From a virus (taxonomy: Duplodnaviria; Heunggongvirae; Uroviricota; Caudoviricetes), in IMG/VR virus record IMGVR_UViG_2718218098_000003: a stretch of DNA of 51,596 nt, one strand, 5' to 3'. A model generated the notes under the pieces. The model saw only the letters and a list, made by a program, of their open reading frames with translations. It was not told the DNA's origin and searched no databases. The translations under genes and the position numbers were made by a program. The first letter of the stretch is position 1; the number at the start of each line of letters is the position of its first letter. This document shows, one piece after another, positions 1 through 16,022 of this stretch.

Positions 1-342
1 ATGATGAAAAAAAGTATTCTGACGTTTCTGTTACTCACCAGTTCTGCAGCGGCGCTGGCTGCACCGCAGGTGATTACCGTCAGTCGTTTTGAAGTGGGTA
101 AAGACAAATGGGCGTTTAATCGCGAAGAGGTGATGCTGACTTGCAGACCGGGTAATGCTTTGTATGTCATTAACCCAAGTACCCTCGTGCAGTATCCTTT
201 AAACGATATCGCACAAAAGGAAGTTGCCAGTGGGAAGACTAAAGCCCAACCCATTTCGGTGATTCAGATTGATGATCCTAACAATCCCGGCGAAAAAATG
301 AGTCTGGCACCGTTTATAGAACGAGCTGAAAAACTCTGTTAA
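1..342 (+). CDS. yebY: Host periplasmic DUF2511-family protein (YebY-like)
   Basis: 113-aa ORF with N-terminal signal peptide ([22 protein letters not shown]); lies outside the att repeat; name recalled from the K-12 pphA-sdsR-yebY neighbourhood. Confidence 0.6.
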
Positions 343-373
343 TTACCTAAAATAGCCTTTTGATTTCCAATAA

Positions 374-414
374 AAAAACCGCCTCAGTTCTTTCACCAGA
401 ACGGGCGGTTTTTA
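374..414. terminator. Bidirectional intrinsic terminator (hairpin accgcc...gggcggt flanked by A-run and T-run)
   Basis: aaaaaaaccgcctcagttctttcaccagaacgggcggttttt; T-tract on both strands; closes yebY (plus) and a minus-strand antisense sRNA. Confidence 0.6.
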
Positions 415-603
415 ACATTTCAGCTGATGACCACCACGCTTTTTATTGACCATTTTGCACGCAAACTGGAAAACCTGGCGTCGTCATCTATTCTTAAAGG
501 GCAAGGCAACTAAGCCTGCATTAATGCCAACTTTTAGCGCACGGCTCTCTCCCAAGAGCCATTTCCCTGGACCGAATACAGGAATCGTATTCGGTCTTTT
601 TTT
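375..603 (-). ncRNA. ryeA: RyeA (SraC) antisense sRNA, 3' portion; 5' end probably displaced by the prophage
   Basis: Minus-strand terminator at 374-414 and full complementarity to sdsR; extent inferred from recalled K-12 locus, not seen directly. Confidence 0.3.
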
Positions 604-604
604 A
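501..604 (+). ncRNA. sdsR: Small RNA SdsR (RyeB)
   Basis: Sequence gcaaggcaactaagcctgcattaatgccaacttttagcgcacggctctctcccaagagcc...accgaatacaggaatcgtattcggtcttttttt matches recalled SdsR; ends in an intrinsic terminator that coincides with the att core. Confidence 0.7.
578..603. repeat. attL core (direct repeat with 50504-50530)
   Basis: acaggaatcgtattcggtcttttttt versus acaggaatcgtgttcggtctcttttta at right end; adjacent to int. Confidence 0.6.
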
Positions 605-734
605 ATTGTATTTAAAATCAATTAGTTGCAAACGTCTCCCCGAAATTACTCGAAATTTACTCGAATTTCTGTATTCCGGTCTTTTTTGATTATATCACAA
701 CCAAAACACATTTAACAATCCATTTACGTTAAAA

Positions 735-1811
735 TCAGAGCAGTAAGTACGTTTTTTCTCTCTCATCAAGATACATTTTTGTTGTCTTCTCCGATGTGTG
801 GCCAAGTAGACGTTGAGCAAATTCTTCCCCACATGTTTCTTTGTACAATCGTCCAGCCAGGCTTCTGATCTCGTGAAAAGTTGGTGGGTTTTCACTGAAC
901 TGGATACCTGTTAATTTTCTGGCTGCGACAAATTTCTTTGTCAGGCCGTCCGGGTGAATGCTGCCGTCAGGGCTGTTTTTTCTAATCCCGGCACTGATTA
1001 GATAATCCCCCCTACTTACCATGCGGCACTGTTCAACTACTGTACCAAGTCGTAAACCAGCGACAGGAAGGCTGAGTGACAGGGGGATAGCAATCATCAT
1101 TCCTGTCTTAATTTGCCTGATGTGGAGACGATCATCATAAATCTCACTGAACCGCATATTTGTTATGTCTTCGCGACGTTGTCCTGTTACAAGGGCTAAG
1201 TCCATAGCTAATGGGAACCATGTCGGAAGTTGATCTGCTGCCTCCCTGATGCAGTTGTATGTCTTTAGTTTCAGCCGTTCTCTTGTAACTACTATTTTCG
1301 GTGCTCTTGTTGGCGTTACTGGATTTTGAGATATACGTCCTTCAACAATGGCCTCGCGGAACATATCAGATAACACAGAACGCATTGATCCTGCCATCGT
1401 GTTTTTCCCTCCTTCAATCCACAAATCAAGAAACTCGGCAATATGGCGAGTGGTTATTTCTGTCAGTAAAACTCCTCCTAATTTTTCTTTTATTGTCTCC
1501 AGTTGATTTACCCGAATTTTATAAGTATTTCTGGACACTTTTCTCCTTATAAGAATCGTTTTGTAACGTTCAATCCAGTCTGCCATAGTAAATGAGTCGA
1601 ACCCTTTTAGTTTTTCAATTAAGGCAGCAGGAGAGTAGTTTTTGTATATATAATGATTTGCTTCAATTGCCTGCGCTACTGCATCTCTTCTTGAAATTTT
1701 ACCTAGTGTAAATTCTTCTTTCGTCAGAGGGTTGCGCCAGTAATATGCTTTGTCCCTCCTTCGATATGTTAAGTTTTTAGGCAAATTGGGATCGTATTTT
1801 TTCCGCTGCAT
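735..1811 (-). CDS. int: Tyrosine site-specific integrase (lambda Int family)
   Basis: 358 aa; C-terminal catalytic region with R...HxxR...Y (LLGHTSEKTTKMYL); adjacent to att core and overlapping xis. Confidence 0.9.
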   Translation of the reverse strand: MQRKKYDPNLPKNLTYRRRDKAYYWRNPLTKEEFTLGKISRRDAVAQAIEANHYIYKNYSPAALIEKLKGFDSFTMADWIERYKTILIRRKVSRNTYKIRVNQLETIKEKLGGVLLTEITTRHIAEFLDLWIEGGKNTMAGSMRSVLSDMFREAIVEGRISQNPVTPTRAPKIVVTRERLKLKTYNCIREAADQLPTWFPLAMDLALVTGQRREDITNMRFSEIYDDRLHIRQIKTGMMIAIPLSLSLPVAGLRLGTVVEQCRMVSRGDYLISAGIRKNSPDGSIHPDGLTKKFVAARKLTGIQFSENPPTFHEIRSLAGRLYKETCGEEFAQRLLGHTSEKTTKMYLDEREKTYLLL

Positions 1812-2064
1812 GTTTTAACTTCTCCAGTAACGGACTGTCTCTCCCTTGTCGCCCATTAGGCTGATGGTGTGTTATATCGGTATCAACCTTATTTGGGTTG
1901 ATATAGAAAGCTTCCGGAACCACCCTGTAACTCCTCCCGTGTAGTTCAGGTGCAGGATAAATGTTTCCATTCCTTGCCCATCGTCTCAGCGTTGATATTG
2001 ATGGTGGGTTATCCGGATATCTGAGTTTTCCCCACGTTTTGAGTGTCACAAGATTCATTGCCAT
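1777..2064 (-). CDS. xis: Excisionase (Xis-like); start may be the second ATG at 2058
   Basis: Small basic protein LVTLKTWGKLRYPDNPPSISTLRRWARNGNIYPAPELHGRSYRV, overlaps int start as in lambda. Confidence 0.7.
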   Translation of the reverse strand: MAMNLVTLKTWGKLRYPDNPPSISTLRRWARNGNIYPAPELHGRSYRVVPEAFYINPNKVDTDITHHQPNGRQGRDSPLLEKLKHAAEKIRSQFA

Positions 2065-2164
2065 ACCTCTTACGATATGACCGCCAGTAAATATACAGAA
2101 TACTGGCGGGTGTGGTTGATTTTTAATAATCAGCTATGAAGTTCTAATTTGTATATAATGCAAC

Positions 2165-2425
2165 TCACGAGGACAGAAGTTTCTCGCAATTAAAATTTAT
2201 CAGCTTTACTTTCTGCTCTCTGGACACGCCTGCTTCTTTTTTCCCTGAGAGCATTTTTTCGCATTCTGATTTCGTTAATTTAGATTTTGAATATCTTGTC
2301 CAGTTAGTAGGAGTGCCACCTTCTTTTTCAATAGTGGCAGTTATTTTATACATGAACACCTCCATTATTATTTCCAGTAGTTCGTTTATTCCATCTTTCG
2401 AGTGCTTCTTTTTCACTTCCACCAT
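2165..2425 (-). CDS. Hypothetical protein (early-left operon)
   Basis: 86-aa ORF between xis and lar-like gene; no recognisable motif; start uncertain. Confidence 0.4.
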   Translation of the reverse strand: MVEVKKKHSKDGINELLEIIMEVFMYKITATIEKEGGTPTNWTRYSKSKLTKSECEKMLSGKKEAGVSREQKVKLINFNCEKLLSS

Positions 2426-2552
2426 AGCCAGTTCGGGATTCGCATCCGTTGCATTTTGCCCGGTAATATCCTGAAATTGCTTTCACCGTAACAGATGGAC
2501 AACCACAAAACGGACATGGTTTAACATCGTCATATCTCATAATTTTTGTCAT
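2346..2552 (-). CDS. Lar-family restriction alleviation protein
   Basis: MTKIMRYDDVKPCPFCGCPSVTV...CNGCESR...ERWNKR; Cys-pair zinc-ribbon pattern typical of Lar; start taken at internal ATG 2552. Confidence 0.6.
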   Translation of the reverse strand: MTKIMRYDDVKPCPFCGCPSVTVKAISGYYRAKCNGCESRTGYGGSEKEALERWNKRTTGNNNGGVHV

Positions 2553-2596
2553 AAAAACTGTCTCACGTTGGCGGTGCATTACACCGCCAGGCTGAA

Positions 2597-3406
2597 TTAT
2601 TCTTCTGAATTATCGATTACACTGTATTCCCCGGTTAATACAGAGGAGTCTGCCGGATCGATTGTCAGTGGTTCCTTTTCATCCATTGATACTGCACGCT
2701 GGATTTCAATTGAGACAGGCAGGTATTTAAACAGGCGACGAATAGCCGTTTTTTTTGCCATTTCTTCCCAGTGAGTTACCCATGGCCCGTTATTACCAGC
2801 CTTACTCTGGCTGCGCACCAGTTCAATCTGTTTGCGCGTCATAACTTCAAACTGAGTCCCTCCGTCTTTCAGTCTTGCGACAGCATAGACGTGGGTCACT
2901 GGTGCATCTTCGTTTTCTCCCGGGCGGTGTATTAACTTTTCATCAAGGCCAAATTCAAAACTAAACTCGTCACCTTCACGGACAACACGGGCTGACAGGC
3001 TGGCGATTTGACCAGAACGGCGAGCCAGATCAATCATGCCGCGATAACCAATGATTAGCTGAACGTTCTTTTTACCGCTCTTTTCGTTTTTATTACCAAA
3101 AGGCAGTAAATATGCGTGGCCGAGGGCGCTACCTGGCTCAAGGCCGAGCTGTGAACACTGAACGATCGCACTGACAAAACTCATGGTGTCACAGTTTCCT
3201 AGCGCCGGAACCTTACGAATTTCTGTGGTGGCGATACGTATCATTCGTTCAGCCGTCATATGGCGTGGGAGAGCTGCTGCCAGTTGCTCTTTCATTGATG
3301 GCTGATTAATAAAGCTGATCACGTCGTTATTTTTTACTGCTGCTGGTGCACGGTTTCCCTGGGTTTTTTGCAGATCGGCTTTTGCGATAGGTGGTTGCTT
3401 AGTCAT
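2597..3406 (-). CDS. recT: Recombinase RecT (single-strand annealing protein)
   Basis: 269-aa product from [28 protein letters not shown]... matches recalled Rac RecT; SD aaggag upstream; overlaps recE end. Confidence 0.92.
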
Positions 3407-6032
3407 TTGCATACTCCTTAGCCCAGCGGGGCAGTGATAACGTTTTAATAGCTGGCCATTCATCGGTATTCAGGCAGTCAGCCAGGGTCCTCAGATTGCG
3501 GTGATATTCCTGCTGGCCTGCCAGTTTTGCTTCTTCGCCCATCATGAAAATCTCAACCGGGTAACGTCCGCATTCAACAGTTGTGCTGGCAACCAGAAAA
3601 ACGAAAGTTGGCAGCACGCCAAACTGTGCTTCATAACCGTCACTGTAGAATGCATCCTGAACGTGATAGCGGTAGTCGTAATAAGCCGTTTTGAATCGTT
3701 GAATATCCGCTGTGGTTTTCACGTCCATGATCCAGTGAAATTCAGGAATAATTTTGTCCGGACGGCACCGACACAAAATTCCTGTTTCCGGATCTTCCCA
3801 GTAAATTGATGATTCAGCGTGTCCGGCGCTTTCAACAAGCCATTGCCCCAGCGGCAAAGCCATAACGCTTTGATACATGAGTTCAATTTTCCGGCCTTCT
3901 TCCGCAGTGATAACCGTTTTTCCTGTGCTTGCGCATTCCATCAGAAACGCTTTCTCTTCTTCTTTTCCGGCGTTTGTACGGCGGTTAAATTCAGGTGCTA
4001 CGATAAAGCGGTTACTGAATTCTTCCGGTTCAAGTACCCGGCAGTGGAAAGCGGTTCCTAAATCGAGCGTTTTTGTCTTTGTGGTGTCCACGGGGGCATT
4101 TTTACGCCACAAATACAGTGCCGGAGTATCAGCAATGTCATCGAGCTGAGACTTACTGACACCGGGACCCGCGTGGTAATTCTCATTCGAAATTCCGTAA
4201 TAAATACCTGGCTCTATGTCTTCTACGATTACGGGATCTGCGACTTCGCCAGTTTCATCACTGCAATCGCGATGCGGATCGCTGCCAGCATTCTCATTGT
4301 GCGGATGTTCAGCGCCTTCCATTTCCTCCGGATCTTTTTCCTTAGCTTCAACCTGATTCTCTTCACCGAATGTTTCCTGGTATGTTGCGTCGCCCATCAC
4401 CGCACCACAGTCAGGGCAGTTATCCCCGCCAGTCTGACCGCAGGCATTGCAGACTATTTCCGGTTCCTGTTGCACTACTGGCTCAGGTTGTTTCGCATCC
4501 GGGCTGATTTTTTCCGTTTCTGGCTGGTTCTGGTACACAGAATCGCGAGTCTGGATCCCCTTAACCCATTTCGGATCGTTCGGGTCGCTAATCCCTTCAA
4601 CAAATTCTCCGCGAGAGGCAGCCAGTAATTTGTCTGCATCGACAGGATTTTTGGGCGGAATGTTTTTCCGGGCTTCATGGAGTTCTGCCCGCAGTTTCTG
4701 ATATTTCGCATCAACAGAATTTACCTGTGACTGAGCATCCAGCGACTGCGTGTCCTGATGATGTTCAGTTGCATCCGGTTCCACTGTTTCAGCCGTTGCC
4801 TGTTCATCTGCCATTGCGCAAGATGGTTGCAGTTTTTCTTCATCATCCTGTTTTTCTTCTTCTGTTACACGCTGCGGCATCGGGGCAGAGGAACGACCGC
4901 AGGCAATATCCACGATTTCTGGATCAGGGTTGGCATGATCAGTTTCAGTCAGTACTTTGTTCAGATATTCAGTGACGTGTGCGGGGATAACCTCGATCCC
5001 AATTGGTGCTTCTTTTACGGACGCAACCACGATGGCGCGGGAATAATCCAGCCCACCAGGCATGGTGATGAATTTGTCGCGGAAAACAGAAAAGGGTGGT
5101 TTATTTTCAGCGATAATTTCCTCGACACGTTTAGCGTGTGCCGGATGAAGGTTATAAATGTCCACGTCCATTGAACGAGCCAGTACGCCAGTGGCTACGT
5201 CGCGCGCCAGTGACGTCAGATCGTGAACGAAACCTTCGCCGCGATCGGTGAGGTTCCCGCCGCCAGCATTAGCGCCGGAAGCCGTGCGCGTGATGCGTGA
5301 AACACGATTTCCTTTCATCCACTCTTTTGTCAGCAGACCGCGATCGGTGTAGTCTGCGTCCAGGTATGCTTCGAAAAAAGCAGTCATCAGCCCCAGGCTT
5401 GAATTGCCTGGATTAGGGAAAACTCTGTCAGTATCACGCACCAGTTTGTGGAGATCGCGAATTTCCAGCGGGTCGAGCAGGCTGGTTTTGTGGGAAACAG
5501 CCAGGGCAGTAACAGCTGGTAGTTCTTCAGCTCGTGCAATGTGTAATGCCTGTAGTTCGTCGCGTGAAACGTGCGTTACCGGTTTTTCGCTGCCGTGTTG
5601 AGCAAGCCAGCGAATGGGCAGCTCCTGACCGGAAATCGGGAGTAGCATATTCTCCTCAATCTCCGTCATGTCTTCGCCATTAACATTGGTATTGTCAGTG
5701 CTGGCTGGTTTGTCCTGCGCAGAGGATGAGGGCGCGATAAATACCATTGTGATGCCATCTTCCCCGCCTTTTTCGTAACGGTTGCAGAATTCCGTATCAA
5801 ATACGCCTTCTGGTGGAAGGTCATCAACAACGGGCAAATTGACGCGAACAGGTTTTTTAAAGTCATCTTCATCGTAGCCAGCATCGTCAATCGCAACAGC
5901 ACCACGGGAGATGGCAATGGATAATTTTTTCGCTTCAGCCCAGTAGAAACCGCCTTTAATACCGAGACGTTTTCTTACTTTGTCATTTTTTGCTTCGTAA
6001 TACAGTGGGTAAACTTGTTTATCGGTGCTCAT
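3399..6032 (-). CDS. recE: Exodeoxyribonuclease VIII (RecE)
   Basis: 877-aa [39 protein letters not shown]... matches recalled RecE; immediately upstream of recT. Confidence 0.9.
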
Positions 6033-6130
6033 TGTTTTTTAACCTCAACTCAGATTAAAATTAATGCGAGTGATGAATAAATGTCCCAGGTTCTTCACTC
6101 AGGCCTGCACAGTGTGCAGGCTTTCTTTTT

Positions 6131-6406
6131 TCAGATTTCACCTTTTAATTTCATTGCAATCAGAGTTGCCAGAAATTCGGCTTTTTTTTCTGCGGGCAGA
6201 TTCTTTCCTATGTGCACCAGACACATTTTTTTAACACCATCGTTAAGTGTTTTAACGTTGCCTGATGGACCGTCGATATCAACCACAGTGAATGGGGTTT
6301 CTTTATTTTCTGTCTTAATCACGTAGCCAATACGCTTTCCTTCCAGGGTAACTTCGTGAACAATGTCATCAGTAGTAACAACAGTGGCTTCATAACTGGT
6401 AATCAT
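6131..6406 (-). CDS. racC: RacC protein
   Basis: MITSYEATVVTTDDIVHEVTLEGKRIGYVIKTENKETPF... 91 aa; SD aaggag; start at internal ATG of the 107-aa track ORF. Confidence 0.8.
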   Translation of the reverse strand: MITSYEATVVTTDDIVHEVTLEGKRIGYVIKTENKETPFTVVDIDGPSGNVKTLNDGVKKMCLVHIGKNLPAEKKAEFLATLIAMKLKGEI

Positions 6407-6480
6407 GTTTTTCTCCTTAATTAAGGTTGAGCGAATCCCTGCCATTGCTGGCATAAATTCAGTTTCGGATAGTCAGTTAA

Positions 6481-6651
6481 TTAAAGTTCGTGTGCCATCT
6501 GGTCTTTTTCGGCACAGATTTCACTACAATATTTTTTCATTTCCGTCGTTGGTATAACTCCACGCATGAAATGAAGTGGTCTTGTAATGATTTTGCTTTC
6601 TTCAATTTCTTTATTGCAAAGGTGATAAGCACATTTTATTTTCTTAGTCAT
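6481..6651 (-). CDS. Small Cys-rich protein (YdaE-like)
   Basis: 56-aa [59 protein letters not shown], below the 60-aa track cut-off; hand-translated; 1-nt overlap with kilR stop. Confidence 0.55.
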   Translation of the reverse strand: MTKKIKCAYHLCNKEIEESKIITRPLHFMRGVIPTTEMKKYCSEICAEKDQMAHEL

Positions 6652-6872
6652 TACCATGACTCCGCCTTTACAGGTAAACCATCACGACCGAGGAAGACTC
6701 TAATCATGCAGTCAGAAATGCATGTTTTTGTAGCCAGGCTACGAATATAAAGTTTTCGCTTTTTAATATTGTTTGCCGAGGCGATATATGTCCGACCTTT
6801 ATGAAGAACATAATCGCCAGGAGTCACGCACTGACGTGGTATTTCATCAGTTCCGAAGTGATGAGCAATCAT
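6651..6872 (-). CDS. kilR: Killing protein KilR (FtsZ inhibitor of Rac-type phages)
   Basis: [49 protein letters not shown]...; SD ggaga upstream of ATG 6872. Confidence 0.7.
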
Positions 6873-7401
6873 AATTATCTCCATTTTTACAAATGAATTT
6901 TGTCGATGCGGTGCCTGGTGCCTCCAGGTGACGTTAACCAGTTAACAATTAACGCCGGAATACAGGGACCCGCCTGCAAGTACCTACCCATAAGTATTGA
7001 TACGGAGAACAAATGGCCTTTTAACTGTTCCGCGTGCGCTTAGCCGCATTCACCGCATCACAAAATTCACTTTAAAAAGGGCGGACATCAGCCAGCAATG
7101 AAACTGATGCCGCCAAAAGGTAATCAACATGGGTTGTTGCAGCGGGGTTGTCACTTAAGCGTATGGTCAGCCTGACAACCCGGTGTTATCTCGAGGAAAG
7201 GATAGCCTCGCCATACTTACCGCCGCGCCATTTCGCGGATTGCCACAACCGGAAGCGCACGGTCGAAGAAATTTAACGACAAGCCTTCTAAGGGAAAAAC
7301 ACCTCCTCCGTGCGCTTTCGTGTTGTGCGCCTGTCTTTTTTTACCACTTCAGGCTCGGTGGTATACTGGAGTTCTCACACAACCAGTAATAAGGTATTCC
7401 G

Positions 7402-7596
7402 ATGGATAATAAAGACAAAGCCTGGCTACTTGCTTTAGCTTTCAGCATCAGATCGCAGCGAGAAACAACTCATCAAGAATTTTTCTCGGAAATCGAGAAT
7501 GCTGAGAATGAGTTTTTGTCACTACTCAATGAACGTGATGCTAAAAAAAGCGCCGATTCACTTAAGGCTTGGGCGAAACTAGGCTCTTCAAAATAA
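7402..7596 (+). CDS. Hypothetical protein (position of a superinfection-exclusion gene; possibly truncated)
   Basis: 64-aa ORF MDNKDKAWLLALAFSIRSQRETTHQEF...; no motif recognised. Confidence 0.3.
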   Translation: MDNKDKAWLLALAFSIRSQRETTHQEFFSEIENAENEFLSLLNERDAKKSADSLKAWAKLGSSK

Positions 7597-7780
7597 TTGC
7601 TTCTGTAGCGGCATGAACAACTGTTTTTGCCGCCTCTTCAACTTCCTTGTCTGGACGACCAGCCTTTACTTTTTCTGCAATGACCTCCAGCACAGTTGGA
7701 AGAACCTTGCTAATAAGCATGGCTGCCACATCTTTGCTGCACAATTGACCGTTAATAACAACCAGATCTTCACCAACCAT
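7562..7780 (-). CDS. Hypothetical small protein
   Basis: 72 aa from MVGEDLVVINGQLCSKDVAAMLISKVL...; SD aagggg upstream of ATG 7780. Confidence 0.45.
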   Translation of the reverse strand: MVGEDLVVINGQLCSKDVAAMLISKVLPTVLEVIAEKVKAGRPDKEVEEAAKTVVHAATEAIILKSLVSPKP

Positions 7781-8014
7781 CTTTTTTCCCCTTAACGCCG
7801 GGTGGCGGAACGTTTTATCTACTGCGCTTTGTATCAATCAACAACTGCCGTCATGTTCGTATGCCTCAGGCTGGCTACTTAGCCCTGTTCAGTGGCTGGA
7901 TAACTCGAGGTATTGTCCTGCCGTTCTCTGGTGGGGCGTTGTTTGGATATGCTTATTAAACACAATGCGTTTTCTTATGTCAACACGAAATGTGTTTTGT
8001 GGTGGATGTCATAT

Positions 8015-8041
8015 GATGATGGTACAAAAAAGCCCGCTGAT
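8015..8041 (-). terminator. Intrinsic terminator downstream of repressor gene
   Basis: Plus strand aaaaaagcccgctgatagcgggct; on minus strand hairpin followed by T-run. Confidence 0.6.
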
Positions 8042-8079
8042 AGCGGGCTGATTGGCATATTACTGTGATGGCAAGATCA

Positions 8080-8499
8080 TTACTCCGGTGGGGGATTATC
8101 TTTAAGCCTGCCTCTCAAATATTTTTCTACATACTCATCGATTTCTTTTAGCCGGACTTCAAATAGCTCAATCATTCGTTGTTGTTCTGAGCCCGGTAGC
8201 TGGTTAAACAACTCAAGAAGTTTTCGTTGGGATTCATTTAACCACAATTCAGAAGATTCCTGTTCTCCAAATAGGAGCTCAGGAGGAGATATGCCAAGTG
8301 CCTTTCCCAATACGACAGCGTCATGCACTCCAACATTTCTGCTGCCCGCCTCATAGTTACCTATACGCGATTGCGTCCATCCGCAGATTTCAGCAAGTTT
8401 TCCTTGAGATAAACCAAGCTTCTGCCTGCGCTCTTTAAGACGCATTGCAATTTTGTCATTGAGCCTACTAGCGGCAATTTTTTCGTTTTCTTTTTCCAT
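8080..8499 (-). CDS. Prophage repressor, HTH XRE family (RacR-like)
   Basis: 139 aa with HTH LGLSQGKLAEICGWTQSRIGNYEAG; divergent to cro-like gene across an 8500-8595 operator region. Confidence 0.75.
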   Translation of the reverse strand: MEKENEKIAASRLNDKIAMRLKERRQKLGLSQGKLAEICGWTQSRIGNYEAGSRNVGVHDAVVLGKALGISPPELLFGEQESSELWLNESQRKLLELFNQLPGSEQQRMIELFEVRLKEIDEYVEKYLRGRLKDNPPPE

Positions 8500-8595
8500 T
8501 GCATCCTTGTATCACGAATCGTGATTTACATAAAACACAAAACAGCTTGACCATATAACACAAGTTGTGTTTAAAATTGTCATCGGAGGTTTTCA

Positions 8596-8838
8596 ATGAA
8601 CAAAATTTCAACATATCGAAAACAGCTTGGGCTGTCTCAAAGACAACTTGCTGTTCAGTTAGGGTGGATACAAAGCCGACTGGCAAATTACGAAGCAAAT
8701 TTTCGTACCCCTGGACTAGAGGAGTGCAGAAAAATTGTTTCTACCCTTAATCGGCTTGGCGCTCATTGTGGACTTGACGATGTATTCCCCCCAGACGGTA
8801 AGCATAGCGAAAACAGCATAGGAGCGGTTGATTCATGA
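8596..8838 (+). CDS. Cro-like HTH regulator (YdaS-like)
   Basis: 80 aa, HTH LGLSQRQLAVQLGWIQSRLANYEAN; SD ggagg; divergent from repressor. Confidence 0.7.
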   Translation: MNKISTYRKQLGLSQRQLAVQLGWIQSRLANYEANFRTPGLEECRKIVSTLNRLGAHCGLDDVFPPDGKHSENSIGAVDS

Positions 8839-9257
8839 AAATCAGGCATGAGCACATCGAATCAGTGTTGTTAGCCCTGGCAGCCGAAAAAGGGCAGGCG
8901 TGGGTCGCTAACGCAATTACTGAAGAATATCTGCGCCAGGGGGGCGGCGAATTGCCCCTTGTACCAGGCAAGGACTGGAACAATCAGCAGAATATCTATC
9001 ACCGTTGGTTGAAAGGTGAAACGAAAGCGCAAAGGGAAAAAATTCAGAAACTGATCCCTGCGGTTCTGGCAATTCTTCCGCGCGAGCTGCGTCACCGACT
9101 CTGCATCTTCGATACCCTGGAACGCCGTGCATTACTGGCGGCGCAGGAAGCGTTGAGTACGGCAATTGATGCGCATGATGATGCAGTCCAGGCCGTTTAC
9201 CGGAAAGCACATTTCAGCGGTGGCGGGTCGCCCGGCGATTCTGTCGTAGTGCATTGA
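8835..9257 (+). CDS. YdaT-family protein
   Basis: 140-aa ORF translationally coupled to the cro-like gene; family name from recalled Rac gene order, not sequence-verified. Confidence 0.55.
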   Translation: MKIRHEHIESVLLALAAEKGQAWVANAITEEYLRQGGGELPLVPGKDWNNQQNIYHRWLKGETKAQREKIQKLIPAVLAILPRELRHRLCIFDTLERRALLAAQEALSTAIDAHDDAVQAVYRKAHFSGGGSPGDSVVVH

Positions 9258-9334
9258 TTGAAATTAATCGTGCCGGATTGTTTTGTTCGGTATCAGTTAA
9301 ATGTAACGCTGCGAGCGTTACAAGGTGAAAACAA

Positions 9335-10465
9335 ATGGCTTCAAACTGGATAAAGCTCGAGGTTATTACGCCGGATAAGCCGGAAATATTCAGGCTTGCT
9401 GAGATTCTGAATATTGATCCAGATGCCGCATTAGGGAAGGTTATTCGCTTCTGGGCATGGGCGGATCAACAAATGATAGACGGTAATGCAGATTGTAACG
9501 CTCGCGGCGTTACAAAAAGTGCAATAGATCGCATTACTTTTATGGCTGGTTTTGCTGATGCGTTAATTCAGGTTGGATGGCTGGTCGAAAATGACGGTGG
9601 GCTTTCTCTACCTAACTTTGAACGTCATAACGGGAAAAGCTCTAAAAAACGGGCGGTTACAAACGAGCGAGTTACAAAAATACGCGAACTGAAACGAAAA
9701 GGTAACGCTGCCAGCGTTACACAAAGGGATCAAAAAGCGTTACCAGAGGAAGAGGAAGAGGAAGATATAAATACTGATCTAACCCATCCCAAACCCTTCC
9801 CTTCCGGAAGGGAGTTCCGGGATTTTGTGGCGGGAGTGCTTGAGGGGAGATTATCTGGCGGTACTGCAGCGGAATTTTGTAATTCTGCGGTGGTTGCGTT
9901 GCAGGCTGCTGGCCTGGATGTCTGTCGTGAGTATCCGGTGCCAGAGCGTGGTGACGGTTGCGGAGGGCGGATTGATATCGTCGTGACTGACAGGAACGGT
10001 GTCCGGTGTGGGATCGAGCTTGACCGAAATTCTCCGCGACAGAAATCACTGCTCAAAATCGGTGCTGTTGAAACCGGGATATGTGTCTTGCGGCGCAGTG
10101 ATATCGCAAGGCACACCGAGCAGGGAATTCTGGTTATCGGTGGGGCTGTTCGCCAGAAAAAATTTGACCCGTTGTCAGTTGATCTGCCCGACTGGTTGCC
10201 AGAAACACTCTGGCATGAGTGGGTCCAGTTCAGGCAGGCATTGCGAAAACCGATTCGAACGGAGCAGGGCGCTAACGGGGCGATACGGGAGCTGGAAAAA
10301 TTCCGCCAGCAGGGTTTTACACCTGAGCAGGTGATTCGACACAGTATCGCCAATGAATACCAGGGCCTGTTCGCGCCGAAAGGTGTTCGGCCTGAGACGT
10401 TGCTCCGACAGGTTAACACCGTCTCGTTGCCGGACAGTGCGATCCCGCCAGGCTTCAGGGGGTAA
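9335..10465 (+). CDS. Phage replication initiator / replisome organiser with an extra central domain
   Basis: N-terminus WIKLEVITPDKPEIFRLAEILNIDPDAALGKVIRFWAWADQQ resembles replisome-organiser N-domain; followed by DnaC-like loader; central ~100 aa RIDIVVTD...GIELD looks nuclease-like. Confidence 0.6.
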   Translation: MASNWIKLEVITPDKPEIFRLAEILNIDPDAALGKVIRFWAWADQQMIDGNADCNARGVTKSAIDRITFMAGFADALIQVGWLVENDGGLSLPNFERHNGKSSKKRAVTNERVTKIRELKRKGNAASVTQRDQKALPEEEEEEDINTDLTHPKPFPSGREFRDFVAGVLEGRLSGGTAAEFCNSAVVALQAAGLDVCREYPVPERGDGCGGRIDIVVTDRNGVRCGIELDRNSPRQKSLLKIGAVETGICVLRRSDIARHTEQGILVIGGAVRQKKFDPLSVDLPDWLPETLWHEWVQFRQALRKPIRTEQGANGAIRELEKFRQQGFTPEQVIRHSIANEYQGLFAPKGVRPETLLRQVNTVSLPDSAIPPGFRG

Positions 10466-10471
10466 CAGACC

Positions 10472-11218
10472 ATGAAAAATATTGCGACAGGCGGCGTTCT
10501 GGAGCGTATCCGCAGACTGACCCCACCACATGTAACCGCCCCATTCAGAACGGTTGCGGAGTGGCGTGAGTGGCAACTTGCTGAAGGCCAGAAACGTTGC
10601 GAGGAGATCAACCGCCTGAATCGTCAGTTGCGGGTGGAAAAAATTCTGAATCGCTCTGGCATCCAGCCGTTGCACCGTAAATGCTCGTTTGCGAATTACC
10701 AGGTGCTGAACGACGGCCAGCGATACGCGTTAAGCCAGGCGAAATCCATTGCCGATGAACTGATGACCGGGTGTACAAATTTTGCGTTCAGCGGAAAACC
10801 TGGTACCGGGAAGAATCACTTAGCGGCAGCTATCGGGAATCGCCTGCTGAAAGACGGTCAGACAGTGATTGTGGTTACCGTGGCTGATGTTATGAGCGCC
10901 CTGCACGCCAGCTATGACGACGGGCAGTCAGGCGAAAAATTTTTGCGGGAGCTGTGCGAAGTGGATCTGCTGGTTCTTGATGAAATTGGCATTCAGCGCG
11001 AGACGAAAAACGAGCAGGTGGTGCTGCACCAGATTGTTGATCGCCGGACAGCGTCGATGCGCAGCGTGGGGATGCTGACAAACCTGAACTATGAGGCCAT
11101 GAAAACATTGCTCGGCGAGCGGATTATGGATCGCATGACCATGAACGGCGGGCGATGGGTGAATTTTAACTGGGAGAGCTGGCGTTCGAATGTTGGTCAG
11201 CCAGGAATTGAGAAGTAA
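10472..11218 (+). CDS. DnaC-like helicase loader (IstB-like AAA+ ATPase)
   Basis: Walker [16 protein letters not shown], Walker [10 protein letters not shown]. Confidence 0.85.
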
Positions 11219-11240
11219 TTTTTACCGGGAGGAAATTTTA

Positions 11241-12002
11241 ATGGAGACTGTTTTTGACGCACTGAAAGCAATGGGAAAAGCCACATCCATAGAACTTGCT
11301 GCGCGACTTGATATCAGTCGTGAAGAAGTGCTGAACGAACTATGGGAACTGAAAAAGGCTGGTTTTGTTGATAAAAGCGTATACACCTGGCGTGTGGCCG
11401 ATAACAACGTTCAGCAGGAACATCCAGTGCCGGAAGAACAGCCGGAAGAAATCGCCACGGCAACAGTAGCGAAAATCTCAGAGTGCGATTTAACCGCGAC
11501 GATTGAACAACGCGGACCACAAACGGCGGATGAACTGGCTACGCTGTTCGGTACCACATCCCGCAAAGTGGCTTCAACGCTGGCAATGGCAATCAGCAAA
11601 GGTCGTCTGATTCGTGTTAATCAGAACGGTAAATTTCGTTACTGCATGCCGGGCGGTAATTTACCAGCAGAGCCGAAAGCGGCATCGGTAGCGGAAACTG
11701 ATGGTAAAGCCTTTCCTCAGCCTGCATGTGTTGCGTTACCAGTACAGGACGCGGCAACACAGGAAGAAATTAAAACAGAAACTGTGACGGACATTGTGCA
11801 GTCGTTGCCATCGTTTACTGAAACGCGAGCGGATGACCTGGTTTTACCATCGCTGCATATGGCAAACCGCGAACTGCGTCGGGCGAAAAATCATGTCCAG
11901 AAGTGGGAGCGAGTCTGCGCCGCGCTGCGGGAGCTGAACAAGCACCGGGATATTGTTCGACAGATTTTCGATTCCTCCAGTCGTATTGTGTCGGAAAAGT
12001 GA
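11241..12002 (+). CDS. Hypothetical protein, probable winged-helix domains
   Basis: 254 aa from [43 protein letters not shown]; SD ggagg. Confidence 0.5.
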
Positions 12003-12017
12003 TTGCCGGAGGCACCT

Positions 12018-12440
12018 ATGGCAAAAGTATTTACACCAGAAGAGCGGGAAAAAATTAAAGGGCAGGTTGTTGAACTTGTACGTCTGAGCGGTCGCGAGAC
12101 GTTACGGGCTCTGGAGGCTAAAACCGGTGCATCAAGGTATTACATAAGCACTCTCGCCAGAGAACTGGTCGCCAGTGGTGATGTTTACAATTCAGGCTAC
12201 GGATTATTCCCGTCTGAGCAGGCGCGTAAAGACTGGCAAAACGCCCGCAAAAAACTATCAAGGGCAAAGGTGAAGAAACCGGTTGTGGTTGATCCTGACC
12301 TTATCTGGTCATTACCAGACGGAGAAATACGTCGTTACAACAGACGACAGAACATAATCTGTCGCGAGTGCCGGAATAGTGAAGTTATGCAGCGTGTACT
12401 GGCTTTCTATCAGGGGAATTTTCAGGAGGCGGCGCAGTGA
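12018..12440 (+). CDS. Hypothetical protein
   Basis: 140 aa from MAKVFTPEEREKIK...; SD ggagg before ATG 12018. Confidence 0.45.
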   Translation: MAKVFTPEEREKIKGQVVELVRLSGRETLRALEAKTGASRYYISTLARELVASGDVYNSGYGLFPSEQARKDWQNARKKLSRAKVKKPVVVDPDLIWSLPDGEIRRYNRRQNIICRECRNSEVMQRVLAFYQGNFQEAAQ

Positions 12441-12637
12441 GCAGGATTGACTACCAGGAATTGGCTGCTGCTAACGCTTTCCTGGCGGATGTGCGGGCGG
12501 GGGCGTTTAACGACCTTTGCGCGGCGTTTGTCAGGCACGCAAAAGTTGCAGGGCTGGATGATGGCGATACCGTAACGCTTAAGGAAGCGACAGATACGCT
12601 GCTGCATTGTGCGGAACAGCTTCGTATATCTGAATAA
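12437..12637 (+). CDS. Hypothetical small protein
   Basis: 66 aa, GTG start overlapping preceding stop (GTGA). Confidence 0.4.
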   Translation: MSRIDYQELAAANAFLADVRAGAFNDLCAAFVRHAKVAGLDDGDTVTLKEATDTLLHCAEQLRISE

Positions 12638-12801
12638 TTAAATTTAGCACTGTAAATAAAATTTAATCCTTAACCGGAGGAATTTCTGCACCCTCAGAAC
12701 AGCAGGAGACCACCCGAAAGGGTGGTAATAAAAATGGCAGAACTAACTAAAGAATGGTTGCAACAAACAATTACTGATATTCAGATCAATTGAGGTGAGA
12801 A

Positions 12802-12972
12802 ATGCGGATGGAAAATTGTTTATTGCCGTATCTGGTGCGGTTTGGGGCGTCGTCATTAACAGTTATTCCACATGTCATGATGGCTGACAATATTATCCCG
12901 GCACCAAAGCGCCATACCGGTATTGCAGCGGCGCGACGTGCAGCAAAGAAACGCAGGAGAGCAAAACGATGA
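12802..12972 (+). CDS. Hypothetical small basic protein
   Basis: 56-aa ORF hand-translated (MRMENCLLPYLVRFGASSLTV...AAKKRRRAKR), SD gaggtgag; stop overlaps next start (ATGA). Confidence 0.25.
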   Translation: MRMENCLLPYLVRFGASSLTVIPHVMMADNIIPAPKRHTGIAAARRAAKKRRRAKR

Positions 12973-13157
12973 AAAACCGTAAAGCAAAGATTCTGTTAGC
13001 TCGCAGAAACGGTGTTGGGGTCTGGCGATGGTTGAGGATTAGTAACAGACGAGTGAGGTTGACGGGGTGTTGCGGGGTGATGGGTCACAGCTGTTGCAAA
13101 AAGCCCAGCGCGGCGCAAAACCGCTGGAAAAACCACTTGCGCACTAAAGGAGAGTGA
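12969..13157 (+). CDS. Hypothetical small Cys-rich basic protein
   Basis: 62 aa; translationally coupled on both sides. Confidence 0.25.
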   Translation: MKNRKAKILLARRNGVGVWRWLRISNRRVRLTGCCGVMGHSCCKKPSAAQNRWKNHLRTKGE

Positions 13158-13158
13158 T

Positions 13159-13416
13159 GTGCCTACATTATTCAGAAAAGAATACCCGCGAAGAAGCAGG
13201 ACAATAGAAATCATGTTTCTCATTCTGTTTATCGTGTTGATGATACCGATATCCCCGCTAATTTTTATCTGGGCAATCGGGAAAATAATTGAGCCAGTTA
13301 TTGAATTGTATAACGACGTGGTATGGGCGTCGTTCAACACACTGCACAATAAAATTAATCCGTATAAGGAGAATGAGATGAACGCATCCCCCAACATTAA
13401 ATCCGGAGCACAGTGA
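13159..13416 (+). CDS. Hypothetical small membrane protein
   Basis: 85 aa with one hydrophobic helix IMFLILFIVLMIPISPLIFIWAIG; SD aaggagag; 3' part may belong to the IS left end. Confidence 0.3.
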   Translation: MPTLFRKEYPRRSRTIEIMFLILFIVLMIPISPLIFIWAIGKIIEPVIELYNDVVWASFNTLHNKINPYKENEMNASPNIKSGAQ

Positions 13417-13520
13417 TGAATAAAGGGGGAAATCAGAGAGGTGTGGAGCCTCGCAGATTTCCGGCATCATTGTGCCCAATACGGGATGCATAAAGTTCCC
13501 TCAGACTGGAGACTCCACAA

Positions 13521-14541: not shown

Positions 14542-14788
14542 TCGCTGATACCGATAAATAATGAACTCTTAACAAAAGGGTGAATGCTGAAAGGTTGCTC
14601 TGGCGGCCCGAGTGATGACAACGACAGGTAAGACCGTGACCTGATAAACCTGAATAACAGCCGGGATATAAAGTCCGTAAGGAGAATAAGGCTCAGGTCA
14701 GCGAATCTCATAGTGGCCCGCAGCTCTGGCTGCAATAAGGCCGGATACAGAGCTGCAACTAATCGTCGATGTCAGAACAACGGATGCC
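14542..14788 (+). ncRNA. Candidate IS-associated structured non-coding RNA (possible bridge-type guide RNA); may instead lie in 13300-13520
   Basis: 247 bp non-coding directly after the recombinase with an 8-bp stem gcagctctg...cagagctgc (14720-14756) and other complementarity; inference only. Confidence 0.25.
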
Positions 14789-15812: not shown

Positions 15813-15899
15813 AAACGGTTTGCGGGAAAAGGAGAGTTAAGTAGAATTGCTGCGGGTGCTTGAGGCTATCTGCCTCAGGCATGAACACCAACGGCAGAT

Positions 15900-15990: not shown

Positions 15991-16022
15991 CTTACGTGCC
16001 GAAAGGCAAGGAGAAGCAGGCT

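What the first reader, a model, noticed from the sequence alone, without database searches (positions are those of the whole stretch)
501..604. Prophage integrated into the 3' end of sdsR in the bidirectional sdsR/ryeA sRNA locus
sdsR is intact up to its terminator, which is the left copy of a ~26-bp att core (578-603); the right copy is at 50504-50530, just before pphA. int sits next to attL. Short repeats resembling arm-type sites (ctcgaaatt) are near both junctions (620-660 and 50350-50400). The crossover lies within the sdsR terminator, so the phage supplies the 3' end of SdsR. The antisense sRNA RyeA, which in the uninterrupted locus starts beyond the sdsR 3' end, is likely separated from its promoter. 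This locus has been reported as an insertion hot spot in enterobacteria.
Basis: partly seen in the sequence, partly recalled or inferred. Interest (0 to 1): 0.55.

Follow-up and report, generated by a model that had tools for sequence, protein, structure and literature searches.

The report
Prophage inserted in sdsR sRNA terminator
A 50-kb lambda-like prophage sits inside the terminator hairpin of the E. coli small RNA gene sdsR, rebuilding that gene's 3' end with its own copy while cutting the antisense RNA RyeA and the downstream gene pphA off from their normal promoters; this is a clean E. coli example of an insertion hot spot already described in Salmonella.

Summary
The finding holds. Rfam finds sdsR (504-603, +) and ryeA (607-463, -). 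A 49.9-kb Rac/lambda-mosaic prophage (about 604-50503) lies between sdsR and pphA, with int/xis next to attL. Joining the two junctions gives a sequence 100% identical over 600 nt to prophage-free E. coli. The inferred attP exists as one contiguous stretch in a phage genome and in a viral contig. The "26-bp core" is imperfect (24/26). The mismatch pattern confines strand exchange to 578-588 (ACAGGAATCGT), which is the 7-nt terminator loop plus 2 nt on each side. The phage therefore supplies the 3' stem arm and U-tail of SdsR, with two base changes. Int is a lambda-Int homologue with an arm-binding domain. The arm repeats and IHF-like boxes are conserved in relatives. The mapped K-12 ryeA promoter and TSS (50575-50580, about 50567) lie right of attR, so RyeA loses its promoter. 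pphA loses its main promoter, which is sdsR read-through. The phage P' arm carries a conserved antisense promoter-like element that may replace the ryeA promoter. The module occurs in 228 of 5,426 complete E. coli genomes. This is a known kind of event (Salmonella PhiW104, 2008). One extra result: E. coli's "native" ryeA promoter overlies a fossil int 3' end.

The parts
1..342 (+). yebY CDS, the conserved left flank
   Evidence: PGAP annotation of the identical region in strain M19. Present in all 5,426 genomes.
489..494 (+). sdsR sigma-S promoter -10 (TATTCT), intact
   Evidence: This is the hexamer replaced in primers PM_SdsRF/R of Choi 2019, located in the sequence.
501..603 (+). sdsR (ryeB) sRNA gene. 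Positions 501-588 are host-derived and 589-603 are phage-derived.
   Evidence: Rfam RF00111 at 504-603, 118 bits. The +1 is set from the primer coordinates +104 and +142. Three-way alignment.
569..597 (+). SdsR terminator hairpin: 5' arm 569-579, 7-nt loop AGGAATC 580-586, 3' arm 587-597, followed by a U-tract
   Evidence: RNAfold and the terminator scan.
578..603 (.). attL copy of the 26-bp repeat. The 11-bp block 578-588 (ACAGGAATCGT) is the only stretch identical in attL, attR, attB and attP, so strand exchange must occur there.
372..603 (-). ryeA (sraC) body left at attL without its native promoter and first ~55-64 nt
   Evidence: Rfam RF00101 at 607-463, 179 bits. RyeA 3' ends lie at +261 to +270 from a +1 equivalent to 50567.
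616..628 (+). IHF consensus (AATCAATTAGTTG) between the core and the P' repeats, in the position of lambda H'
   Evidence: One of only 4 matches to WATCAANNNNTTR in the whole window. A similar box is present in relatives.
638..670 (+). three tandem arm-type repeats (P'1-P'3-like), 11-bp period
   Evidence: Sequence and motif statistics. Nearly invariant in a 77%-identical Salmonella element. Analogous triplets occur in 21 of 110 sdsR sites of other species.
668..686 (+). conserved block CTGTATTCCGGTCTTTTTT, a near copy of the core's right half; function unexplained
   Evidence: recurs across genera.
689..718 (-). sigma-70-like promoter in the phage P' arm pointing into sdsR antisense (TTGTTA-18-TGaTATAAT). 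Predicted TSS is about 682. Candidate replacement ryeA promoter.
   Evidence: Promoter scan, 10 of 12 matches with an extended -10. TGTGRTATAA is conserved in family-A P' arms and in remnants.
735..1811 (-). int, a lambda-family tyrosine integrase with an N-terminal arm-binding domain
   Evidence: Pfam PF09003 + PF22022 + PF00589. E = 1.4e-71 to lambda Int with all six catalytic residues conserved.
1777..2058 (-). xis (excisionase)
   Evidence: Pfam PF07825, E = 6.5e-14. PGAP annotation.
604..50503 (.). prophage, about 49.9 kb. Rac-like early region (ralR/RalA, recET, kil, ydaSTUV), four tRNAs, lambda-like late genes; several pseudogenes and an IS110.
   Evidence: Boundaries.
50349..50389 (+). 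P-arm arm-type repeats (TCTGAAAT, CCCGAAATT, CTCGAAAAA)
   Evidence: The layout is conserved at -155 to -118 in 14 attR/attP-type sequences.
50395..50407 (.). IHF-like box TAACTAATTGAAT next to the P-arm repeats (one mismatch to the consensus)
   Evidence: Conserved TAACnnnTTGAT box in relatives.
50504..50529 (.). attR copy of the repeat. The identical block is 50504-50514. From 50515 onward the sequence is the host's original sdsR 3' end (G and C alleles), now orphaned.
50515..50567 (-). orphaned 5' segment of native RyeA
   Evidence: RyeA +1 mapped from primer BHIA+10R.
50575..50605 (-). native sigma-70 ryeA promoter (-10 TATGGT at 50580->50575; -35 region about 50598-50605). It now fires into the prophage's right end.
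   Evidence: The -10 is the hexamer replaced in primers PM_RyeAF and RyeA-p2/p3.
50573..50643 (-). fossil 3' end (about 23 codons) of an older integrase gene, lying under the native ryeA promoter
   Evidence: nhmmer profile of family-B int 3' ends: E = 3.8e-4, the only hit besides the prophage's own int. Local alignment score 31 versus shuffles 14.8 +/- 2.4.
50664..51320 (+). pphA, a lambda-phosphatase homologue, separated by 50 kb from the sdsR promoter that normally drives it
   Evidence: E = 3e-62 to PDB 1g5b. Read-through dependence from Choi 2019.

Best explanation
A lambdoid prophage of about 49.9 kb integrated by lambda-type site-specific recombination into the Rho-independent terminator of sdsR. 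Its Int is a tyrosine recombinase with an arm-binding domain, accompanied by Xis. The attP has lambda-like architecture: P-arm repeats and an IHF-like box, then the core, then an IHF box and three P' repeats, then int. The two arms of the terminator hairpin act as the inverted core-type Int sites. The 7-nt loop AGGAATC (580-586) is the probable overlap region where the strands are exchanged. This is the same logic as phages that use the anticodon stem-loop of a tRNA gene. Because attP carries a mimic of the last ~26 nt of sdsR, the lysogen makes a full-length SdsR. Its 3' stem arm and U-tail are phage-encoded and differ from the host allele at two positions: G589A turns a U.G pair into U-A, and C598U lengthens the U-run from 5 to 7. 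The insertion moves the native sigma-70 ryeA promoter, the first ~55-64 nt of RyeA, and the whole of pphA 50 kb away. RyeA in the lysogen must therefore start from phage DNA, most likely at a conserved extended -10 promoter in the P' arm with a predicted TSS near 682. That would give an RNA about 40 nt longer that still covers all of SdsR. pphA loses the sdsR-promoter read-through that normally transcribes it. Shown here: the insertion, the boundaries, the 11-bp exchange window, the phage origin of the SdsR 3' end, displacement of the mapped promoter and of pphA, and the Int/Xis family and site layout. Inferred: the 7-bp overlap equals the loop, the repeats bind Int, the P' promoter is active, and the expression changes follow.
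For: Rfam hits for sdsR and ryeA. The repeat. The three-way alignment of attB, attL and attR with its diagnostic mismatches. Flank homology ends at 604 and starts at 50499. 5,191 of 5,426 genomes have an uninterrupted interval. The reconstituted attB is 100% identical over 600 nt to empty-site genomes. The reconstructed attP is contiguous in phage PP818812.1 at 94% and in an IMG/VR contig, both carrying A and T at the two diagnostic positions. Int has the Pfam arm-binding, central and catalytic domains and Xis matches PF07825. Int aligns to lambda Int at E = 1e-71 with R, K, H, R, H and Y conserved. The hairpin geometry places the loop at 580-586, inside the 11-bp identical block. Arm repeats are conserved on both arms in relatives. 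An IHF consensus lies at 616-628. The ryeA -10 and +1 and the sdsR coordinates come from published primers. pphA dependence on the sdsR promoter is. A review of Balbontin 2008 states that PhiW104 lysogeny changes the ryeA 5' part, lowers ryeA and raises ryeB. The same attL and attR modules occur in 228 genomes each.
Against: No expression data are available for this lysogen. The P'-arm promoter is only a consensus match, and the scan found fewer promoter-like sites in that region than in shuffles (2 versus 3.7). Most relatives have TATAAC rather than TATAAT at its -10. The arm-repeat and -10 motifs were defined after looking at the sequences. The exact cleavage positions are not determined; the data fix only an 11-bp window. 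The prophage has several pseudogenes and an IS110, so it may no longer be able to grow lytically, although int, xis and both att sites look intact. Predicted hairpin stability is the same for the native and hybrid terminators (-15.8 kcal/mol), so any functional effect of the two base changes is unproven.
Confidence: 0.88

Rival explanations
1. RyeA is simply lost in the lysogen. The ryeA body at attL has no active promoter, so SdsR is freed from its antisense antagonist and from convergent-promoter interference.
For: The native promoter and +1 are displaced. The P'-arm promoter is only a consensus match. The PhiW104 precedent reports decreased ryeA and increased ryeB.
Against: An extended -10 motif is conserved at the same place in P' arms of diverged elements and is retained in remnants. 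int is transcribed in the same direction, with no predicted minus-strand terminator between int and sdsR. The review speaks of a modified 5' portion and decreased, not abolished, ryeA transcription.
Confidence: 0.3
2. The element is a fixed, defective prophage remnant that can no longer excise. The att repeats are then only a historical scar.
For: Pseudogenes (a split ydaU-like gene, truncated esterase and YdfR genes, a frameshifted tail assembly gene) and an IS110 insertion.
Against: int and xis are full length with catalytic residues intact. Both cores keep the 11-bp identity. Close relatives exist as a sequenced phage and as a circular-type attP contig. The site is occupied in only 4% of genomes, with identical junction modules, which fits ongoing gain and loss.
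Confidence: 0.3
3. The similarity between E. coli's native ryeA promoter region and integrase 3' ends reflects capture of host sequence by phages, or chance, rather than a fossil integrase in E. coli.
For: The hit is short (about 70 nt, 14.4 bits, E = 3.8e-4). The protein-level match is not significant on its own.
Against: The matched phage sequence encodes the conserved Box II to C-terminus region of the integrase (LGH...Y...VMV), which is constrained by protein function and shared with lambda Int. The hit is the only one outside the prophage's own int, and it lies at the position and in the orientation expected beside the att core. Graded remnants, from Int fragments down to about 50-nt relics, occur at the same place in 47 of 110 other species.
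Confidence: 0.15
4. The insertion arose by a mechanism other than Int-mediated recombination (transposition or homologous recombination), and the 26-bp repeat is a coincidental similarity of terminators.
For: None found.
Against: Exact reconstitution of the empty site. A contiguous attP in independent phage sequences. int and xis lie directly at the junction. The same core is flanked by Int homologues in many genera.
Confidence: 0.02

Closest known systems
Phage PhiW104 and the ryeA/ryeB insertion hot spot of Salmonella enterica (Balbontin, Figueroa-Bossi, Casadesus & Bossi 2008, J Bacteriol 190:4075; known here only through citing papers PMC7380047, PMC3333887, PMC3603311)
   Same: The attachment site lies within the last ~23 bp of ryeB/sdsR, which is internal to ryeA. 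Lysogeny replaces the 5' part of ryeA. The site has been used repeatedly by foreign DNA. Here the exchange block 578-588 and the 26-bp repeat lie in the last 26 nt of sdsR. A Salmonella element (OK490361.1) has a 73%-identical Int and the same P' repeats.
   Different: The host is E. coli, and the prophage body is a Rac-like/lambda-like mosaic. The original paper could not be read, so I cannot say which of my refinements (loop as overlap, P' promoter, fossil int, pphA uncoupling) it already contains.
Bacteriophage lambda and HK022 Int/Xis/IHF site-specific recombination
   Same: Int has the same three-domain architecture, including the arm-binding domain, with all catalytic residues conserved. 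Xis is of the lambda type. attP has two or three P-arm repeats, an inverted-repeat core around a 7-nt spacer, an IHF consensus and three tandem P' repeats at about +60 to +90, followed by int reading toward the core.
   Different: Identity to lambda or HK022 Int is only about 41%. The arm-site consensus differs (CYCGAAAWT-like). attB lies inside an sRNA terminator rather than an intergenic site. The P' arm has an outward antisense promoter-like element and an extra core-like block that lambda lacks.
Phages and islands that integrate into the 3' ends of tRNA/tmRNA genes and regenerate the gene end (e.g. P22 at thrW, P4 at leuX, CP4-57 at ssrA; Williams 2002 NAR 30:866, from memory; discussed in PMC3603311)
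   Same: The target is a conserved RNA-gene hairpin with a 7-nt loop. The element carries a copy of the displaced 3' end, so the RNA stays intact.
   Different: The target is an Hfq-dependent sRNA terminator in a bidirectional locus. One strand's gene is therefore repaired while the antisense gene and a read-through-dependent downstream gene are uncoupled from their promoters.
Rac prophage of E. coli K-12
   Same: The early region is Rac-like: ralR/RalA (219 bits), recET, kil and ydaS/T/U/V homologues.
   Different: Rac sits at ttcA (from memory). This element has a different int/att module and an intact lambda-like late region.

Membership tests
SdsR_RyeB sRNA (Rfam RF00111) | Covariance-model score above the gathering threshold over the full model | tested here: met
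   118.1 bits against 38, model positions 1-100 of 100, at 504-603.
SdsR_RyeB sRNA (Rfam RF00111) | Position downstream of yebY with a sigma-S promoter and a Rho-independent terminator | tested here: met
   yebY at 1-342. The -10 TATTCT at 489-494 is identical to K-12. The hairpin at 569-597 is followed by a U-tract. Promoter activity was not measured.
SraC_RyeA sRNA (Rfam RF00101 / K-12 RyeA of about 270 nt) | Covariance-model match to the conserved 145-nt part | tested here: met
   179.1 bits against 37 at 607-463.
SraC_RyeA sRNA (Rfam RF00101 / K-12 RyeA of about 270 nt) | Contiguity with the mapped K-12 promoter and +1 (about 38 nt beyond the sdsR 3' end) | tested here: not met
   The -10 (50575-50580) and +1 (about 50567) lie on the far side of the 49.9-kb insertion. 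The Rfam model does not cover this 5' part.
Lambda-type (arm-binding) tyrosine integrase recombination module | Tyrosine recombinase catalytic domain with the R-K-H-R-H-Y residues | tested here: met
   PF00589, E = 3.4e-16. The alignment to lambda Int 5j0n shows all six residues conserved.
Lambda-type (arm-binding) tyrosine integrase recombination module | N-terminal arm-type DNA-binding domain | tested here: met
   PF09003, 28.1 bits against a cut-off of 22, residues 3-61. Matches PDB 1kjk at E = 4e-4.
Lambda-type (arm-binding) tyrosine integrase recombination module | Arm-type repeats on both sides of the core, distinct from the core sequence | tested here: met
   Repeats at 638-670 and 50349-50389, conserved in relatives. 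Int binding was not tested.
Lambda-type (arm-binding) tyrosine integrase recombination module | Core made of inverted core-type sites around a 6-8-bp overlap that is identical in attP and attB | tested here: inconclusive
   The hairpin arms form the inverted repeat around the 7-nt loop, and the 11-bp identical block 578-588 contains it. Cleavage sites were not mapped.
Lambda-type (arm-binding) tyrosine integrase recombination module | Adjacent excisionase and host-factor (IHF) sites | tested here: met
   Xis PF07825. An IHF consensus lies at 616-628 and an IHF-like box at 50395-50407. IHF dependence was not tested.
ryeA/ryeB (sdsR) hot-spot elements (Balbontin 2008) | Attachment site within the last ~23 bp of ryeB/sdsR | tested here: met
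   The repeat at 578-603 and the exchange block at 578-588 lie within the last 26 nt of sdsR.
ryeA/ryeB (sdsR) hot-spot elements (Balbontin 2008) | Lysogeny replaces the ryeA 5' portion and changes RyeA/RyeB levels | tested here: inconclusive
   The sequence replacement is shown. Expression changes cannot be tested with these tools.
ryeA/ryeB (sdsR) hot-spot elements (Balbontin 2008) | Integrase related to that of PhiW104 | not testable with these tools
   The PhiW104 sequence is not in the collections searched. A Salmonella element with a 73%-identical Int and the same att was found.

The most novel reading that the evidence does not exclude
RyeA/SraC may be, in evolutionary terms, a product of the mobile elements that use the sdsR terminator as attB. 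Under this reading, each element's P' arm carries an outward promoter about 100-115 nt from the core that re-creates an antisense RNA over SdsR after integration. The 'native' ryeA promoters of enterobacteria, including the experimentally mapped K-12 one, are left-overs of earlier insertions. In E. coli the -10 TATGGT is the V-M-V codons of a fossil integrase C-terminus. pphA, a lambda-phosphatase homologue, may be fossil cargo. This would explain why sdsR is conserved while sraC and the 3' neighbour vary. It would also mean that sigma-S-driven sdsR read-through now runs antisense into int/xis, coupling stationary phase to prophage excision control.
Probability: 0.45. Interest if true: 0.6.

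Novelty: new member of a known kind. Interest (0 to 1): 0.4.

Why it matters
SdsR is a conserved RpoS-dependent, Hfq-binding sRNA that regulates porins, tolC and mutS. RyeA is its antisense antagonist, described as an antitoxin. pphA is transcribed by read-through from the sdsR promoter (PMC3333887, PMC6610125). About 4% of complete E. coli genomes carry this insertion. In those strains the circuit is rewired in three ways: SdsR gets a phage-encoded 3' end, RyeA gets a different 5' end and promoter, and pphA is orphaned. Such strains should not be assumed to behave like K-12 in SdsR/RyeA/pphA studies. The locus is also a clear natural case of a phage repairing one gene of an overlapping sense/antisense pair while disrupting the other. 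The survey suggests that more than half of the sampled enterobacterial species carry an integrase or its remains at this exact spot.

Tried and rejected
1. I could not obtain Balbontin et al. 2008 (PMC2395037 or DOI). Its content is taken from citing papers only.
2. Fröhlich 2012 Supplementary Fig. S1 (the sraC promoter alignment) is not held. The match between the Salmonella sraC -10 and the P'-arm motif therefore rests on the text statement "about 35 nt further upstream" against my 40 nt.
3. I tested whether the phage-supplied 3' arm changes terminator stability. The predicted energy is identical (-15.8 kcal/mol), so I make no stability claim. Only the U-run length differs.
4. The second promoter-like site in the P' arm (632->605, 9/12) is not conserved in L125 or the Salmonella element, so I do not favour it.
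5. I looked for prophage-free E. coli carrying the full phage-type SdsR allele, as a sign of allele conversion by past lysogeny, and found none. 42 genomes have A589 alone, which is ordinary polymorphism.
6. A protein-level test of the fossil int (tblastn with the C-terminal 80 aa) was not significant on its own (E = 0.76). The claim rests on the DNA profile, position and orientation.
7. A low-threshold Rfam search of the prophage's right end found nothing convincing.
8. Literature searches for E. coli prophages at sdsR/ryeB or yebY-pphA found no specific description. Only Salmonella reports and a "RyeB" target label for a Citrobacter prophage turned up.
The species survey is therefore a sample, not a census.
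Full report
**1. What is at the coordinates**

Rfam at gathering thresholds finds SdsR_RyeB at 504-603 (+, 118 bits) and SraC_RyeA at 607-463 (-, 179 bits). Upstream is yebY (1-342). To the right lie an intact integrase ORF (735-1811, -) and an excisionase (1777-2058, -). At the far end of the window, pphA starts at 50664. The first 1,300 bases are 100% identical to E. coli strain M19.

The published primer coordinates of Choi et al. 2019 (PMC6610125) place three features:
- SdsR +1 is at 500/501.
- The sdsR -10 (TATTCT) is at 489-494.
- The 3' end is at 600-603.

**2. The repeat and the insertion**

The repeat finder pairs 573-609 with 50499-50535 (86% of 37 nt).

Homology of the left flank to all 5,426 complete E. 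coli genomes stops at 604 in those lacking the integrase. Homology of the right flank starts at 50499. Counts across the 5,426 genomes are:
- 5,191 have an uninterrupted yebY-sdsR-pphA interval.
- 228 have this int next to sdsR.
- 228 have this P arm next to pphA.

Joining 289-588 to 50515-50814 gives a 600-nt sequence that is 100% identical to several prophage-free genomes.

**3. Where the strands were exchanged**

The three junction sequences, with the diagnostic bases in capitals, are:
- K-12 attB: …GGACCGAATACAGGAATCGTGTTCGGTCTCTTTTTATCTGTT…
- attL: …CGAATACAGGAATCGT**A**TTCGGTCT**T**TTTTTAATTGT…
- attR: …TTGACGAA**A**ACAGGAATCGTGTTCGGTCTCTTTTTATCTG…

At 589 and 598, attL differs from attB while attR agrees with it. 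At 577 the reverse holds. Exchange must therefore lie within 578-588 (ACAGGAATCGT).

The attP reconstructed from the two junctions is present as one contiguous sequence in two independent records. One is phage record PP818812.1 (94% identity over 719 nt). The other is IMG/VR contig L125. Both carry A and T at the two diagnostic positions.

The terminator hairpin has its 5' arm at 569-579, a 7-nt loop AGGAATC at 580-586, and its 3' arm at 587-597. The identical block is the loop plus 2 nt on each side. By analogy with lambda (7-bp overlap) and with tRNA-anticodon-loop att sites, I infer that the loop is the overlap and the hairpin arms are the core-type Int sites. This step is not demonstrated.

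**4. Consequence for SdsR**

Nucleotides 589-603 of the lysogen's SdsR are phage-encoded: the whole descending arm and the U-tail. There are two changes from the host allele:
- G589A turns a U.G pair into U-A.
- C598U changes UCUCUUUUU to UCUUUUUUU.

The predicted fold and energy are unchanged. Both variants are common among enterobacterial sdsR genes: A at the 589-equivalent in 84 of 110 sampled species, and T at the 598-equivalent in 52 of 110. SdsR is thus very probably functional. An effect of the longer U-run on Hfq binding or termination is possible but untested. No prophage-free E. coli has the full phage allele, and 42 have A589 alone.

**5. The recombination machinery**

Int has the Pfam arm-binding, central and catalytic domains. 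It aligns over its whole length to lambda Int (E = 1.4e-71) with R212, K235, H308, R311, H333 and Y342 conserved. Identity to the characterised HK022 and lambda integrases is about 41%. Xis matches the lambda excisionase family.

- Three 11-bp-spaced copies lie at 638-670.
- Copies lie at 50349-50389.
- The motif CYCGAAAWT occurs 6 times in the window, 3 of them at the junctions. The motif was defined post hoc.
- The three P' copies are nearly invariant in a Salmonella element whose flanks are only 77% identical.
- Analogous triplets follow sdsR in 21 of 110 sampled species.
- P-arm copies followed by a TAACnnnTTGAT box recur at -155 to -100 in 14 attR/attP-type sequences.
- An exact IHF consensus sits at 616-628, between the core and the P' repeats. 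It is one of four matches in the window.

The layout matches lambda attP.

**6. Consequence for RyeA**

The K-12 ryeA -10 is the hexamer replaced in primers PM_RyeAF and RyeA-p2/p3 (TATGGT on the minus strand). It maps to 50580->50575, and RyeA +1 maps to about 50567. RyeA ends 261-270 nt downstream, at the bidirectional yebY terminator near 372.

In this strain the promoter and the first ~55-64 nt are at attR, while the remaining ~215-230 nt are at attL. The strong Rfam hit does not contradict it, because the model covers only the 145-nt conserved part.

The phage P' arm carries a minus-strand sigma-70-like site at 718->689 (TTGTTA-18-TGaTATAAT, 10 of 12 matches, extended -10). The predicted start is near 682. 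This site would yield an antisense RNA about 40 nt longer than K-12 RyeA that still covers all of SdsR. Three observations fit this:
- The TGTGRTATAA element is conserved in P' arms of diverged relatives and in int-less remnants such as those in Klebsiella.
- Fröhlich et al. report that Salmonella and Shigella SraC is about 35 nt longer, with a -10 about 35 bp further upstream.
- A review of Balbontin 2008 says PhiW104 lysogeny modifies the ryeA 5' part, lowers ryeA and raises ryeB.

I therefore favour replacement over loss (about 0.55 versus 0.3). This remains an inference.

**7.

Choi et al. show that pphA is transcribed mainly from the sdsR promoter by read-through of the sdsR terminator. 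They also show that ryeA transcription interferes with it. The prophage puts 50 kb between the sdsR promoter and pphA. No plus-strand promoter-like site is predicted in the last 600 nt of the prophage. pphA expression is therefore predicted to fall.

Two further inferences follow. sdsR read-through now runs antisense into int and xis. The displaced native ryeA promoter now fires into the prophage's right end.

**8. How general the site is**

It returned 121 hits in many Enterobacterales genera. The hits break down as follows:
- 110 have sdsR upstream.
- 11 are attR/attP-type.
- 11 of the sdsR-type sites have a full-length Int homologue (51-73% identity) within 2.5 kb.
- 7 have Int C-terminal fragments.

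I built DNA profiles from the distal P' arm plus int 3' end of two sub-families. They hit 43 and 33 loci directly beside the core, in the expected orientation. For family A there were no hits elsewhere in the 8-kb loci. Taking the union, 11 intact elements plus 47 remnants make 58 of 110 sites. This generalises the "insertion hot spot" described for Salmonella.

**9. An unexpected by-product**

The family-B profile excludes the core and arm repeats. In the whole window it finds only two things: the prophage's own int (E = 6e-20) and E. coli's native spacer at 50573-50643 (E = 3.8e-4). The second hit has the orientation and position of an int 3' end beside an att core. A pairwise score of 31 against shuffles of 14.8 +/- 2.4 agrees with this.

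The mapped K-12 ryeA -10 (TATGGT) coincides with the V-M-V codons that end these integrases. E. coli's "empty" attB therefore looks like the attL of a much older, almost fully deleted element, and the canonical ryeA promoter looks exapted from it. pphA is a close homologue of the lambda phosphatase (E = 3e-62 to 1g5b) and might be old cargo, but I did not test that. The fossil hit is short, and I rate this reading at roughly 0.6-0.7.

**10. Comparison with what is known, and verdict**

The phenomenon is published for Salmonella (Balbontin et al. 2008): phage attachment in the last ~23 bp of ryeB, with alteration of ryeA. "RyeB" is already used as a target label for a Citrobacter prophage. I found no description of the E. 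coli case in the held literature.

Mechanistically this is a lambda-type Int system that targets an RNA-gene hairpin and regenerates the gene end, as tRNA-targeting phages do. I file it as a new member of a known kind.

I add four refinements:
- The exchange window is 11 bp and coincides with the terminator loop.
- The phage-encoded SdsR tail carries two substitutions.
- RyeA is probably re-promoted from the P' arm.
- pphA is uncoupled from its main promoter.

Interest is moderate (0.4). A specialist would not be surprised by the insertion itself. The fossil-integrase origin of the ryeA promoter and the built-in antisense promoter are worth a bench test.

Noticed in passing
window 48300-50000: The right end of the prophage has no ORF of 60 aa or more. 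It does have 4-6 minus-strand intrinsic terminators and three to four paralogous repeat units (48379-48499, 48850-48970, 49111-49231; 48083-48319 / 48551-48787) that contain minus-strand promoter-like sites. It looks like an array of transcription units of about 120-160 nt, possibly prophage sRNAs. Nothing in Rfam matched at E <= 0.02 apart from the att core.
   Followed up: partly
window 50573-50643 (and K-12 L001 about 2147-2217): E. coli's native sdsR-pphA spacer matches the 3' end of integrase genes of Enterobacter/Lelliottia/Kluyvera elements. The experimentally mapped ryeA -10 (TATGGT) corresponds to their last V-M-V codons.
   Followed up: yes
window 668-686: CTGTATTCCGGTCTTTTTT in the P' arm is a near copy of the core's right half (GTATTCGGTCTTTTTTT). 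It is conserved at the same distance in P' arms of many genera. Its function is unknown; it could be an extra Int site or the 5' end of the phage-driven RyeA.
   Followed up: partly
L003 (PP818812.1, 'Actinobacillus phage vB_Apl-pPE4'): This record is labelled as an Actinobacillus pleuropneumoniae phage. Yet its Int is 98% identical and its attP 94% identical to this E. coli prophage, and it carries the sdsR 3'-end mimic. The host label looks doubtful.
   Followed up: no
window 50664-51320: pphA is a close homologue of the bacteriophage lambda Ser/Thr phosphatase (E = 3e-62 to 1g5b). It lies just beyond the fossil int, so it may be cargo of an ancient insertion.
   Followed up: no
L126 (NZ_CP025849.1) and 41 other E. 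coli genomes: These are prophage-free sites with A instead of G at the 589-equivalent position of the SdsR terminator, while keeping the native C598. With this allele the attB/attP identity would extend to 20 bp.
   Followed up: yes
window 2169-2540, 15854-16177, 16584-17069: Three toxin-antitoxin-type modules lie inside the prophage: RalR/RalA (Rfam 219 bits), hokD/sok (116 bits) and a Doc-family toxin.
   Followed up: no
window 19233-19541 and 20284-21641: A four-tRNA cluster (Ile, Arg, Thr, Gly) and three copies of the STnc100 sRNA family lie downstream of the Q-like gene. No stx genes are present.
   Followed up: no
window 9335-10465, 13521-14540, 21817-22395, 23077-23418, 41418-41991: There are signs of decay: a split ydaU-like gene, an IS110-family transposase insertion, truncated esterase and YdfR genes, and a frameshifted tail-assembly gene in the PGAP annotation of strain M19.
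   Followed up: no
H61/H173 (NZ_CM128592.1, strain 200088): An IS1A sits inside the yebY-sdsR-pphA interval of an otherwise empty site, so this locus is also hit by IS elements.
   Followed up: no
window versus NZ_CP010221.1: The window is 100% identical to strain M19 at both ends, but the coordinate offsets differ by 1 base. There is therefore a 1-bp indel somewhere inside the prophage relative to that assembly.
   Followed up: no
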